Below are positions 3,001-6,000 of a DNA stretch of 43,671 nt, one piece after another. The position numbers were made by a program. The DNA lies in IMG/VR virus record IMGVR_UViG_642791630_000021; one strand, given 5' to 3'. Positions within the stretch are counted from its first letter, which is position 1; the number at the start of each line of letters is the position of its first letter. Source of the DNA: a virus (lineage: Duplodnaviria; Heunggongvirae; Uroviricota; Caudoviricetes).

Positions 3001-6000
3001 TAACGGGAACTAGGAATTTCCCGTCGGACCATATAAGTTTAAGTTCCTGTCTTGGTGATGTTCTGGCTTTTCCGTTTTGATTCTTGATTTTTCAGATAGT
3101 TAGCTACCTTCATTTCCATTGCGGCAATGTAGGCACGAACGTCATGATCAACCCAACTAGGCTCCGTAGCATTTCCAGATAAGAGGAAAGCCACAATTGC
3201 TCTTTTTTCATCAGAGGCGGCTTGATAAAGGCTGTTTATGTCTAAAAGTTCACTTTTTGTATCTGAAGTGGATGGGGTTGGTATGGGGTATTCGTTAAGC
3301 CCCCAATGCTCTGGACCAACCACATCAGAAAAGAAACGCCATAGTTCTGGAAGTTTGTCTTTACTTATCGAACCTTTCTTAATCCAGTCATGGATTGATG
3401 GTGGTTGGACTTTGAAATGACGTGCGATTTCCGCCTTTGATTTGACGGCTCCTGATGCAATTTTTTTGTTAATGGCCTGCTCTATCGCTCGGCCTAAGTC
3501 TTTACCACTAAGCATTGCTTAATAGTCTCCTATGCGCATCGCATTAGGCAATACCTACTCTCGAAGCGTTAGGCATAGCCTATTGGCAGTTGCATTAGGC
3601 TAAGCCTAATATTATTGTGTGTTTTTTGGAGTTCATTCGATGAAAAAAGATAACTATTCATTCAAACGAGCTTGTGCTGTTGTCGGTGGGCAATCAGCAA
3701 TGGCTAGGCTTTTAGGTGTATCTCCTCCAAGCGTAAATCAATGGATCAAAGGTGTACGTCAGTTGCCTGCTGAGAGATGTCCTGCGATTGAACGAGCAAC
3801 AAAAGGTGGTGTCCTGTGTGAAGAACTTCGTCCTGATGTTGATTGGACATACTTACGACGCTCGTCATGTTATTCGCAGAATATGTCGATGAAGCAACCA
3901 AATGACGAAAACGATCATACCCGAAGCATCAAGAGGCAAATGATTCATGAAAATCAAACATGAGCACATCCGCATGGCGATGAATGCCTGGGCATATCCT
4001 GATGGTGAGAAAGTTCCTGCAGCTGAAATAGCCCGGACTTATTTCGAACTGGGGATGACGTTCCCGGAACTGTACGACGACAGCCATCCGGAAGCCCTGG
4101 CTCGTAATACCCAGAAAATTTTCCGTTGGCTGGATAAAGACACCCCTGATGCTGTTGAAAAAATGCAGGCTCTGTTACCGGCGATCGAAAAGGCAATGCC
4201 GCCTCTGCTGGTGGCCCGTATGCGCAGTCACAGCTCTGAATATTACCGTGAGATCGTCGAACGGAGGGATCGGCTGGTGAAAGATGTGGATGATTTTGTC
4301 GCAGCGGCGATCGCCTGGGGCACCCTGACTAACAGTGGGGGTCAGCCTGGTAATGCTGTTGTCGTGCATTGACCAACAATATTCATGCCGGATTTCTTCC
4401 GGATGTTCGAGGGTAAAGTTCGGTATCAGATGAGGTGAGTATGGCTAATGCCTGGCTCAGATTGTGGCATGACATGCCAAATGATCCCAAATGGCGAACC
4501 ATTGCCAGGGTCTCAGGACAGCCAATCGCAACAGTGATGGCGGTGTATATCCACCTTCTGGTGAGTGCGTCACGAAATGTCACGAAATGTCACGGCGAGT
4601 CACTACGTGGTCACATTGATGTCACGACGGAAGATTTAGCAAGTGCGCTTGATGTGACGGAAGACGTGATTGATTCAATTTTGCATGCAATGCAGGGGCG
4701 AGTTCTGGATGGCGATCTTATTTCCGGATGGGAAAAACGCCAGGTGATGAAGGAGGATAACGGTAATGTTTCGCAAACCGCAAAATCCCCGGCAGAGCGC
4801 AAGAGAGCGCAGCGGGAGCGGGAAAGACTGCGGGAGCAGAACACTGATTGTCACGATGAGTCACGACGCGTCACGCATATGTCACGACAAGTCACGACAG
4901 ATACAGATACAGATAAAGAATTAAACCCCACACATAACGCGCGCATGCGCGAGAGTGCTCCAGCCAGTGAGTCGAATGGCGCGCCGTTGCAGACAGCAGA
5001 ACCTGAATACCCGGATGGCCTGAGCGAACCGATCGGGAAATTTCCGATGACTGGTGTCTGGCGGCCGTCGCTGGATTTTCGACAGCGGGCTGCATTGTGG
5101 GGTATGGCTCTGCCTGAGCCTGAGTTTACACCTGCTGAGCTTGCCGCATTCCGGGATTACTGGATGGCGGAGGGGAAGGTTTTCACGCAGGTTCAGTGGG
5201 AGCAGAAATTTGCCCGTCACGTGCAGCACGTCAGGGCACAGGTAAAACCAGTCAGCAAGGGGGTAAGCCATGCAGCACCAGGTGGCACCGCATCACGGGC
5301 AGTTCAGGAAATTCGGGCAGCACGTGAACAGTGGGAACGTGAAAACGGATTTATCAGCAACGGAAACGGCCTGGAAGCTGTGGGAACTTATGGGGGAGGT
5401 GTATTCGAACCGCTGGACCCAGAAGAACGGGGCTGCGCCGTCGAAGCTCTGGATTGCTCAGATTGGCGCGATGACTGAACAGCAAATCCGGCAGGTCTGC
5501 CGTCAGTGCATGGACCGCTGCCGGGCGGGTGAAACGTGGCCTCCGGACCTGGCTGAGTTTGTGGCGTTGATTTCGGAGAGCGGGGCAAATCCATTTGGCC
5601 TGACGGTGGATGCCGTGATGGAGGAGTACCGTCGCTGGAGGAATGAATCCTGGCGGTACGACGGGAGTGATAAATACCCGTGGCCACAGCCGGTGCTGTA
5701 CCACATTTGCCTCGAGATGCGTGACAGAGGGATTGAGCGGCAGATGACGGAAGGTGAGTTAAAACGACTTGCAGAACGGCAACTGACGAAATGGGCAAAG
5801 CAAGTTGGTAACGGGATGAGTATTCCCCCGATCCGGAGACAACTCGCATCGCCGAAGTGCCCGCAAGGGCCAACGCCAATTGAATTACTGAAACAGGAAT
5901 ACGAGCGCCGGAAGGCGGCTGGTTTTGTTTGAATCTGAGAAACGATTTTGTCGGAGGAAATTTTAATGGAAACCGTATCTGACGCACTGAAAGCACTGAA

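What the first reader, a model, noticed from the sequence alone, without database searches (positions are those of the whole stretch)
4560..4920. Two separate iteron clusters inside the O-like replication gene
Cluster 1 has about six GTCACG-core repeats with 10-11-bp periodicity and cluster 2 has five, about 220 bp apart, the second followed by a short A/T-rich stretch. Both lie within the coding sequence. Two arrays rather than one may reflect a duplicated origin or a regulatory titration site.
Basis: seen in the sequence. Interest (0 to 1): 0.4.

Follow-up and report, generated by a model that had tools for sequence, protein, structure and literature searches.

The report
Split replication origin inside initiator gene
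The replication-initiator gene of this E. coli O157 prophage carries two real arrays of protein-binding repeats: one is an ordinary phage origin, and the other is an extra array written into the coding sequence of the protein's own DNA-binding domain, an arrangement shared by many related phages and apparently not described before.

Summary
There are six GTCAC cores on a 10-11 bp lattice at 4569-4626, five GTCACG at 4850-4896, a 223-bp gap, and an A/T-rich tract at 4897-4927. All lie in the initiator gene (4441-5478) of a lambdoid O157:H7 prophage.

In 72 homologous loci the linker array is always present. It is followed by an A/T- and purine-rich tract and often by a GC palindrome, so it is the origin proper, laid out like lambda ori.

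The upstream array has no unwinding tract, so it is not a duplicated origin. It is still a selected DNA element:
- 43 of 72 loci carry the same core upstream (cross-class control 3.4%).
- The core switches in both arrays together: GTCACG, CGAACG, GTAACG, GTGACG, GCAACG.
- The core tracks two residues of a basic helix in the initiator (K121/Q124 here).
- Synonymous positions inside the cores are frozen while they vary elsewhere.
- The array sits in different loops or orientations in different lineages.

Best reading: an accessory initiator-binding array that cooperates with the origin by bridging about 230 bp. A negative control role (titration, handcuffing or roadblock) is not excluded. I rate it a new variant of a known kind, of moderate interest.

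The parts
4441..5478 (+). Replication initiator gene (345 aa). It has an N-terminal winged-helix-like domain (aa 1-100), a basic helix (aa 117-134), a disordered linker, and a DnaT-like ssDNA-binding domain (aa 193-267).
4569..4626 (+). Upstream (accessory) iteron array: six GTCAC cores at 4569, 4579, 4589, 4599, 4610 and 4621. It encodes the loop aa 43-62 between helix 29-45 and helix 63-70.
   Evidence: The loop has lower pLDDT (about 74) within a domain above 90. Codons forming the cores are frozen in 18 homologues. Close relatives carry 4 or 6 copies.
4653..4658 (-). Single inverted core (GTCACA on the minus strand; GTG-AC on the plus strand, codons V72-T73), about 30 bp after the upstream array.
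   Evidence: The V72 codon is GTG in 16 of 16 homologues. The equivalent inverted copy changes to CGTTGC in the GCAACG-class phage Firinga.
4798..4815 (+). Codons R120-K121-R122-A123-Q124-R125 of the basic helix. K121 and Q124 are the residues that co-vary with the iteron core across the family, so they are candidate specificity determinants.
   Evidence: K..Q goes with GTCACG in 22 of 22 loci, and other residue pairs go with other cores. The helix is predicted at aa 117-134.
4850..4896 (+). Origin-proximal iteron array: five exact GTCACG at 4850, 4860, 4870, 4881 and 4891. It lies in the interdomain linker coding region (aa 137-152).
   Evidence: A phased array is present at this position in 72 homologous loci.
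4897..4927 (+). A/T-rich, purine-rich tract ((ACAGAT)x3.8 followed by AATTAAA). It is the presumed DNA-unwinding element and also the mosaic junction between the N-terminal and C-terminal modules.
   Evidence: The equivalent tract follows the linker array in all 72 loci, with mean lowest GC 0.28 against a locus mean of 0.58 and 80% purine. Megablast breakpoints fall at about 4899-4920. The same junction is present in Rac-type initiator genes.
4940..4951 (.). G+C-rich palindrome CGCGCATGCGCG just after the A/T-rich tract.
   Evidence: A palindrome with at least 5 GC pairs lies within 100 bp after the array in 36 of 72 loci. The mean number of GC pairs is 3.7 against 1.9 in control windows.
5390..5932 (+). 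Lambda-P-like helicase loader gene. RefSeq starts it at 5471, but homology suggests the ATG at 5390. It is the partner of the initiator's C-terminal module.
   Evidence: Pfam Phage_lambda_P E 1.6e-16, with the match beginning at aa 55 of the 5270-5932 ORF. phrog_109 is a P-like loader, and phrog_33198 matches from aa 41. RefSeq annotation.

Best explanation
Both arrays are binding sites (iterons) for the prophage's own initiator. The binding unit is a 6-bp core, NNNACG (here GTCACG), repeated once per helical turn.

The downstream array, the A/T- and purine-rich tract and the GC palindrome together form the replication origin proper. They sit in the DNA that codes for the flexible linker between the initiator's DNA-binding and loader-recruiting domains, the same layout as lambda ori. 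Initiator molecules stacked on this array would open the A/T-rich tract. The DnaT-like C-terminal domains would hold the single strands and recruit the P-like loader with DnaB.

The upstream array has no unwinding tract. It is written into a surface loop of the DNA-binding domain's coding sequence. I read it as an accessory array: initiator bound there bridges or loops the roughly 230-bp intervening DNA to the origin array, building a larger and more cooperative initiation complex, as an enhancer would.

Shown by comparative evidence: both arrays are under DNA-level selection and are matched to the initiator's specificity, and only the downstream array has origin architecture. Inferred: actual binding, looping, and the positive sign of the effect.
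For: 1. Non-random arrays. P is 6e-17, and these are the only two phased clusters in the window.

2. Conservation of the layout. 72 homologous loci have a phased linker array. 43 of them carry at least 3 copies of the same 5-mer in the N-domain coding region, against 3.4% in cross-class controls. Density is 19.8 per kb there and 1.24 per kb in the rest of the locus. No arrays occur elsewhere in these loci.

3. Covariation of the core. It changes in both arrays together: GTCACG, CGAACG, GTAACG, GTGACG, GCAACG. These switches do not follow the similarity of the winged-helix body. For example, L033 (CGAACG) is 82% identical to the window, and L045 (GTCACG) is 91% identical to L056 (CGAACG).

4. 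Link to the initiator. The core class tracks two residues of the basic helix. K..Q goes with GTCACG in 22 of 22 loci, with one exception to the scheme overall.

5. DNA-level selection on the upstream array. Codons that form the cores are invariant: GTC, ACG, GGT and CAC in 18 of 18 loci, TCA in 17 of 18, and the GTG of the inverted core in 16 of 16. Other conserved residues use 3-5 synonymous codons. The CGAACG class shows the same pattern, for example Arg CGC in 13 of 13. The cores fall in all three codon phases.

6. Origin architecture only downstream. The A/T- and purine-rich tract and the GC palindrome follow the linker array only. The module breakpoint lies right after it.

7. Variable placement. 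The upstream array sits in a different loop in L068 and L073, and is inverted in L070 and L072. This suggests repeated gain under selection.

8. Protein anatomy. A DnaD-NTD-like winged helix carries the array-encoded segment as a lower-confidence loop. The C-terminal domain is DnaT-like, and a P-like loader gene lies downstream.

9. Precedent. Extra, weakly bound iterons are needed for replication of Stx-phage origins (PMC7466680). SPP1 gp38 binds a second repeat region as well as oriL inside its own gene (PMC6316719).
Against: - No binding, looping or replication data exist for this family. None were found in 10 full-text searches.
- 20 of 72 relatives, including loci with well-formed linker arrays, have no upstream array, so it is not essential to the family's mechanism.
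- Copy number in the linker array is not significantly higher where the upstream array is missing (5.0 against 4.26, p = 0.17). There is therefore no sign that the two arrays compensate for each other.
- Helical phasing between the arrays is only weakly supported and is confounded by relatedness and by iteron gain or loss.
- In plasmids, second iteron arrays without an unwinding element usually act negatively. That knowledge (P1 incA, F incC) is my own.
- The residue-to-core relation is a correlation. One locus, L028, breaks it.
Confidence: 0.45

Rival explanations
1. The upstream array is a negative control element. It would titrate the initiator or pair with the origin array (handcuffing, as with P1 incA or F incC). 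Alternatively it would act as a roadblock about 130 bp into the initiator's own gene, so that abundant initiator shuts down transcription of the initiator and loader genes and transcription through the origin.
For: - It has the same specificity as the origin array and no unwinding element of its own.
- It lies at the 5' end of the initiator-loader operon, downstream of the only promoter-like site found (3583-3612).
- It is dispensable in 20 of 72 relatives, as expected for a regulator rather than a core part.
- Orientation is not fixed, which a roadblock or titration site would tolerate.
- Plasmid precedent for control iterons rests on my own knowledge.
Against: - A phage in lytic growth has no obvious need to limit copy number.
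- The origin array itself already lies inside the gene and could serve as a roadblock.
- There is no direct evidence either way.
Confidence: 0.3
2. The upstream array is a replication-fork or helicase barrier. Initiator bound there would block the leftward fork about 230 bp from the origin. This would make replication unidirectional or help trigger the switch from theta to rolling-circle mode, as proposed for gp38 bound at oriR of SPP1.
For: - It is a tight array of 4-10 sites on one side of the origin only, always on the side away from the A/T-rich tract.
- SPP1 precedent: gp38 firmly bound to a second repeat region is proposed to stall forks (PMC6316719).
Against: - In SPP1 the second site is about 13 kb away, not adjacent.
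- Barriers are usually polar, yet the upstream array is inverted in L070 and L072.
- Many relatives lack it.
Confidence: 0.1
3. This is a duplicated or second independent origin, with each cluster able to fire on its own.
For: The two arrays are similar in size and share one core.
Against: - There is no A/T-rich tract or palindrome next to cluster 1. GC is 45-55% at 4560-4700, and the lowest GC is 0.42 against 0.25 across 43 loci.
- The spacers and flanks of the two arrays are unrelated; only the cores match.
- The arrangement is ancient, not a recent duplication.
Confidence: 0.04
4. Cluster 1 is a by-product of a repeated peptide motif needed by the protein, or of chance, and has no role as DNA.
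For: The loop residues (S44, V47, T48, R56, G57, H58) are conserved as amino acids.
Against: - The period is 10-11 bp and the cores fall in all three codon phases.
- Synonymous sites within the cores are frozen, while other conserved residues vary freely.
- The core switches together with the linker array.
- Chance is excluded, P 6e-17.
Confidence: 0.01

Closest known systems
Lambda ori inside gene O (lambdoid phage origins, including the six-iteron origins of Stx phages)
   Same: - The origin lies inside the initiator gene, in the segment coding for the interdomain linker.
- The order is a tandem initiator-binding array, then an A/T-rich tract, then a palindrome.
- A P-type helicase loader gene follows.
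- The N-terminal domain plus its iterons form one exchangeable module, and the C-terminal domain plus the loader form another (PMC7466680).
- Extra distal iterons that are weakly bound yet required are known in Stx phages (PMC7466680).
   Different: - The initiator is not homologous to lambda O; there is no Pfam hit for the N-terminal region even at E<=10.
- The sites are 6-bp cores on a 10-11 bp lattice. They are not the roughly 19-bp symmetric iterons bound by O dimers (that description is my own knowledge).
- Lambda has one array. Here a second array lies about 223 bp upstream, within the coding sequence of the DNA-binding domain.
SPP1 gp38 (G38P) 'replisome organizer' with oriL and oriR
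   Same: - The origin-binding protein has an origin (direct repeats plus an A/T-rich unwinding element) inside its own gene, and it also binds a second repeat region (PMC6316719).
- NCBI names relatives of the window protein 'phage replisome organizer'.
- PHROG gives hits to replisome organizer and DnaD-like families, E 3e-4 to 5e-8.
   Different: - In SPP1 the second site is a separate origin-like region about 13 kb away with its own A/T-rich element. Here it is 223 bp away, inside the same gene, and has none.
- There is no Pfam hit to any replisome-organizer N-terminal family.
- The hosts and loader proteins differ.
Phage P4 ori and crr (bipartite origin; my own knowledge: Flensburg and Calendar 1987, Ziegelin et al.)
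   Same: Two separate clusters carry the same short repeat and are bound by one initiator. Only one cluster is the start site, and the other is a cis-acting accessory element.
   Different: - In P4 the two elements are kilobases apart.
- The P4 initiator is a primase-helicase.
- crr is required in P4, whereas the upstream array is absent from 20 of 72 relatives here.
Control iterons of plasmids (P1 incA, F incC; my own knowledge)
   Same: A second array of the same iterons lies outside the minimal origin, next to or around the rep gene, and has no unwinding element.
   Different: - Those arrays are intergenic and act negatively by titration or handcuffing in copy-number control.
- Here the array is inside a coding sequence of a phage, and the sign of its effect is unknown.
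RepA_N plasmid and satellite initiators, and the DnaD N-terminal domain
   Same: - The N-terminal domain binds iterons, and the C-terminal domain is specific to the host machinery (PMC7145576).
   Different: - There is no sequence-level membership; Pfam gives no hit.
[quoted passage not shown]

Membership tests
Iteron-type theta origin located inside the phage initiator gene (lambda-ori layout) | Tandem array of repeated initiator-binding sites | tested here: met
   Five GTCACG at 4850-4896 and six GTCAC at 4569-4626. The cores co-vary with initiator residues. Physical binding was not tested.
Iteron-type theta origin located inside the phage initiator gene (lambda-ori layout) | A/T-rich unwinding tract directly beside the array | tested here: met
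   Met for the downstream array: 4897-4927 has 29% GC, and the tract is conserved in 72 loci. Not met for the upstream array.
Iteron-type theta origin located inside the phage initiator gene (lambda-ori layout) | Position in the interdomain linker coding region, with a module boundary next to it | tested here: met
   The downstream array encodes aa 137-152, in a low-confidence linker. Megablast breakpoints fall at about 4899-4920. Rac-type genes share the junction.
Iteron-type theta origin located inside the phage initiator gene (lambda-ori layout) | Supports initiator-dependent replication | not testable with these tools
   This needs an ori-plasmid assay or a phage assay.
Lambda O protein family | Sequence homology to the lambda O N-terminal domain | tested here: not met
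   Pfam finds only the DnaT domain in the whole protein. It finds nothing in aa 1-120 even at E<=10.
Lambda O protein family | Partner P-type helicase loader encoded downstream | tested here: met
   Pfam Phage_lambda_P E 1.6e-16; phrog_109.
Phage replisome organizer / DnaD-like initiators (SPP1 G38P type) | DnaD-NTD-like winged-helix N-terminal domain | tested here: inconclusive
   [not shown]
Phage replisome organizer / DnaD-like initiators (SPP1 G38P type) | Origin repeats inside the initiator's own gene | tested here: met
   compared with PMC6316719.
RepA_N initiators | Membership of Pfam RepA_N by sequence | tested here: not met
   [not shown]
DnaT-like ssDNA-binding domain proteins | Homology to the DnaT C-terminal domain | tested here: met
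   Pfam PF17948 E 4.5e-17, aa 201-267. PDB 6aep and 4ou6, E 3.5e-20 to 7e-19. The full-length DnaT equivalog scores 91.8 bits against a cut-off of 201, so the protein is not DnaT itself.
Bipartite origin with an accessory iteron array (P4 ori/crr type) | Second array of the same repeats at a distance from the start site | tested here: met
Bipartite origin with an accessory iteron array (P4 ori/crr type) | The accessory array is required in cis, or stimulates replication in cis | not testable with these tools
   This needs the synonymous-recoding experiment. Its absence from 20 of 72 relatives argues against a strict requirement.
Plasmid-type control iterons (handcuffing or titration) | The extra array lowers initiation frequency | not testable with these tools
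   Only the structural prerequisites are met: same specificity and no unwinding element.

The most novel reading that the evidence does not exclude
A large family of phage initiators has repeatedly evolved a second, specificity-matched binding array inside the coding sequence of its own DNA-binding domain. In that segment the DNA element dictates the amino-acid sequence of a surface loop. The array works as a true second half of a bipartite origin. For example, it could capture newly made initiator in cis and loop it onto the origin, giving the phage preferential replication of its own genome. The family also carries a simple two-residue 'code' in a basic helix that sets which 6-bp core is read: K..Q for GTCACG, A..W for CGAACG, V..Y for GTAACG, T..Y for GTGACG, S..R for GCAACG.
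Probability: 0.3. Interest if true: 0.65.

Novelty: new variant of a known kind. Interest (0 to 1): 0.45.

Why it matters
Origins inside initiator genes are textbook for lambda, but the initiator here belongs to a different family that is both very common and unstudied. It has a DnaD-like winged helix and a DnaT-like domain. Matches occur in 1261 of 5426 complete E. coli genomes and in prophages of many Proteobacteria.

If the upstream array is functional, three things follow:
- It is a compact natural example of a bipartite origin.
- It shows how a cis-acting DNA element can constrain a protein sequence.
- It gives a testable recognition code (residues 121 and 124 against the core triplet) that could be used to predict replication incompatibility among co-resident O157 prophages, or to re-target it.

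It also gives a clean experiment. All upstream cores can be removed by synonymous recoding without changing the protein.

Tried and rejected
- **Chance clustering:** rejected.
- **Peptide-repeat explanation:** rejected by the codon-phase and frozen-codon tests.
- **Duplicated complete origin:** rejected because no A/T-rich tract or palindrome lies beside cluster 1.
- **Known RNA element:** no Rfam match at E<=1 in 4200-5300.
- **Internal promoter near cluster 1:** none found. The only sigma-70-like site is at 3583-3612. The terminator-like hits at 4926-4954 on the minus strand are the GC palindrome.
- **Third array elsewhere, as with SPP1 oriR:** none in the window or within 1.5 kb of the gene in 68 homologous loci.
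- **Helical phasing between the arrays:** R is 0.43 at 10.0 bp on 25 distinct gap values (p about 0.01, uncorrected). This is confounded by relatedness and by iteron gain or loss, so I treat it as inconclusive.
- **Compensation in copy number between the arrays:** not significant, p = 0.17.
- **Plasmid collection:** only prophage copies were found, with no defined minimal replicon.
- **Literature:** ten full-text searches found no description of this family's origin or of the two arrays. The library holds open-access papers only, so older subscription papers such as Weigel and Seitz 2006 could not be checked.
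Full report
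**Where the window comes from.** Positions 4435-5478 are 100% identical to a lambdoid prophage integrated next to potC in E. coli O157:H7 genomes. The local gene order is:
- a RacR-like repressor (3039-3515, minus strand);
- a YdaS/Cro-like gene and a YdaT/cII-like gene;
- the 345-aa initiator (4441-5478);
- a lambda-P-like helicase loader.

Matches to the initiator gene occur in 1261 of 5426 complete E. coli genomes.

**The observation.**
- Cluster 1 has six GTCAC cores at 4569, 4579, 4589, 4599, 4610 and 4621. Four are exact GTCACG, one is GTCACT and one is GTCACA. One inverted core lies at 4653-4658.
- Cluster 2 has five exact GTCACG at 4850, 4860, 4870, 4881 and 4891.
- Spacings are 10-11 bp and the gap between the clusters is 223 bp.
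- The tract 4897-4927 has 29% GC and 68% purine.
- Nine exact hexamers on one strand in 328 bp, where 0.066 are expected, give P = 6e-17.
- No other phased GTCAC cluster exists in the 43.7-kb window.
- The cores fall in all three codon phases, so the repeat is a DNA repeat and not a codon repeat.

**The protein.**
- Pfam and PDB searches find only a DnaT-like ssDNA-binding domain at aa 193-267.
- The N-terminal 120 aa match no Pfam family even at E<=10. The protein is therefore 'O-like' by position and role only.
- An AlphaFold model built on 50 homologues gives a confident domain at aa 1-100 (pLDDT above 90), with two helices and a beta wing (aa 63-96). A lower-confidence loop (aa 46-62, pLDDT about 74) sits between helix 29-45 and helix 63-70. 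A helix follows at aa 117-134, and then disorder up to about aa 199.
- Cluster 1 encodes exactly the loop (aa 43-62). Cluster 2 encodes aa 137-152 in the linker.

**Modules.** Megablast against phages shows a mosaic breakpoint at about 4899-4920. Some phages share 3942-4919, which is the N-terminal part with both clusters. Others share 4899/4915-6079, the C-terminal part plus the loader. Rac-type initiators (DUF1376 N-terminus) carry different repeats (GTTCAA) before the same GATACAGATACAGAT...AATTAAACCCC junction. This is the lambda logic: the origin-binding domain and its iterons travel together, and so do the loader-recruiting domain and the loader.

**Comparative test.** I fetched homologous loci from phage records and from 79 bacterial genomes sharing 31-90% amino-acid identity. 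I defined two zones from protein anchors (DPKW and W..RQ).
- 72 loci have a phased array of a 5-mer in the linker zone.
- 43 of these also have at least 3 copies of the same 5-mer in the N-domain zone.
- Only 3.4% of cross-class pairings reach that count.
- Density is 19.8 per kb in that zone against 1.24 per kb in the rest of the loci.
- Spacing within arrays is 10 bp (173 cases) or 11 bp (38 cases). The gap between arrays is 168-297 bp, median 228.
- No phased array lies anywhere else in these 3.3-kb loci.

**Covariation.** Aligned on a shared ACG, the cores fall into classes: GTCACG, CGAACG, GGAACG, GTAACG, GTGACG and GCAACG. When an upstream array exists it always has the class of the linker array. 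In Ralstonia phage Firinga both arrays, and even the single inverted copy, read GCAACG.

The class follows two residues of the basic helix after the winged helix (window R120-K121-R-A-Q124-R125):
- K..Q with GTCACG in 22 of 22 loci;
- A/G..W/Y/F with CGAACG;
- K..W with GGAACG;
- V..Y/F/H/W with GTAACG;
- T..Y/W with GTGACG;
- S..R/H/S with GCAACG;
- one exception, L028.

The class does not follow the similarity of the rest of the domain. L045 (GTCACG) is 91% identical to L056 (CGAACG). L088 (GTCACG) is closest to L087 (GCAACG). L033 (CGAACG) is 82% identical to the window. So specificity has switched repeatedly, and each time both arrays switched with the protein. This is the main reason to conclude that the initiator itself reads both arrays.

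**Selection on cluster 1 as DNA.** In 18 GTCACG-class loci from E. coli, Serratia, Rahnella, Aeromonas, Pseudomonas, Bordetella, Acidovorax and others, conserved residues outside the array use 3-5 synonymous codons, with a top-codon share of 0.28-0.7. The codons that make up the cores are fixed:
- S44 TCA in 17 of 18;
- V47 GTC, T48 ACG, G57 GGT, H58 CAC, V61 GTC and T62 ACG in 18 of 18;
- V72 GTG (the inverted core) in 16 of 16.

The CGAACG class shows the same pattern: AAC 12 of 12, GAA 13 of 13, Arg CGC 13 of 13 and ACG 13 of 13.

Close relatives differ by whole iterons. Cluster 1 has 4 or 6 copies, a 21-bp difference equal to 7 codons. Cluster 2 has 3 to 6 copies. Two viral contigs gained a sixth copy through a 10-bp insertion that breaks the reading frame.

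**Which array is the origin.** The linker array is present in all 72 loci.
- It is always followed by an A/T- and purine-rich tract. The mean lowest GC in 24 nt is 0.28 against a locus mean of 0.58, with 80% purine.
- In 36 of 72 loci a GC-rich palindrome also follows; in the window it is CGCGCATGCGCG at 4940-4951.
- This is the lambda ori order of iterons, then A/T-rich tract, then palindrome. PMC7466680 describes the first two; the palindrome in lambda is from my own knowledge.
- Nothing comparable follows the upstream array: lowest GC 0.42 against 0.25, and 45-55% GC in the window.

The downstream array is therefore the origin proper and the upstream array is accessory.

**The upstream array is not fixed in place.**
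- In most loci it lies 80-107 nt after the DPKW codons, in the loop after helix 29-45.
- In L068 and L073 it lies 45 nt after them, in the preceding loop.
- In L072 and L070 the upstream copies are inverted relative to the linker array.
- 20 loci have none.

This pattern fits repeated gain (or relocation) and loss of a useful but non-essential element.

**Mechanism.**
- Shown by comparison: there are two initiator-matched arrays, and only one has origin architecture.
- Inferred, step 1: initiator monomers bind one core per helical turn on one face of the DNA through the winged helix and the basic helix.
- Inferred, step 2: the stack on the linker array distorts and opens the A/T-rich tract.
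- Inferred, step 3: the DnaT-like domains bind the single strands and recruit the P-like loader with DnaB. ssDNA binding by this domain is known from DnaT structures 4ou6/4ou7, which the protein matches.
- Inferred, step 4: the upstream array adds 6-7 further initiator molecules that can bridge to the origin across about 230 bp.

I give 0.45 to a stimulatory, enhancer-like role, as in P4 crr or the extra iterons of Stx phages that are weakly bound yet required (PMC7466680). I give 0.3 to negative control by titration, handcuffing or a transcriptional roadblock in the initiator's own gene, and 0.1 to a fork barrier like SPP1 oriR (PMC6316719). Two attempts to separate these by computation were inconclusive: phase coherence of the gap and copy-number compensation.

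**Novelty.** Iterons inside initiator genes are well known. What I did not find described in ten full-text searches is this family's origin, the second array within the DNA-binding domain's coding sequence, its covariation, or the residue-to-core relation. The library is open-access only, so an older description cannot be ruled out. I rate this a new variant of a known kind. It is of moderate interest to replication specialists and offers an unusually clean experimental handle through synonymous recoding.

Noticed in passing
window 5270-5932: The P-like loader gene probably starts upstream of the RefSeq start at 5471. The Pfam lambda-P match begins at aa 55 of the 5270-5932 ORF, and phrog_33198 matches from aa 41, which is the ATG at 5390. 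That start would overlap the last 29 codons of the initiator gene in another frame. phrog_15931 (482 positions) spans both proteins, as if they were fused in some phages.
   Followed up: partly
window 23832-24373: A 162-bp tandem repeat, 3.3 copies, 94% matches. It presumably encodes a repeated 54-aa unit in a structural gene, and it explains the three GTCACG hits on the minus strand at exact 162-bp spacing.
   Followed up: no
L121 and L122 (IMG/VR contigs), about 450-470 nt into the initiator gene: A sixth GTCACG copy was gained in the origin array through a 10-bp insertion. This shifts the frame and truncates the initiator (…VTTSHDR*). It shows that iteron slippage happens and that only changes of about 21 bp (two iterons) keep the gene intact.
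   Followed up: partly
L003 1876-2030 and L004 2253-2400 (Rac-type ydaU genes): Initiators with a DUF1376 N-terminus carry a different repeat (GTTCAA, with one inverted copy) just before the same GATACAGAT...AATTAAACCCC junction. They appear to have only one array, and one isolated copy lies earlier in the gene.
   Followed up: partly
window 4940-4951 and homologous loci: A GC-rich palindrome follows the A/T-rich tract in about half of the loci, across different C-terminal modules. It is often CCCCC-n-GGGGG, encoding Pro-Pro...Gly. Its role is unknown, and it is reminiscent of the palindrome on the right side of lambda ori.
   Followed up: partly
L032 1600-1720, L082 and L089 1630-1730: Some lineages have strongly expanded upstream arrays: 8-10 cores in L082 and L089, and mixed direct and inverted cores in L032. 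These lengthen the protein loop by 10-20 residues.
   Followed up: no
L050 and L064 (Serratia and Pantoea loci): These two homologues have a much longer protein (397-435 aa), with an unrelated insertion right after the W..RQ motif and no recognisable iteron array in the linker zone. They may be domesticated or fused variants.
   Followed up: no
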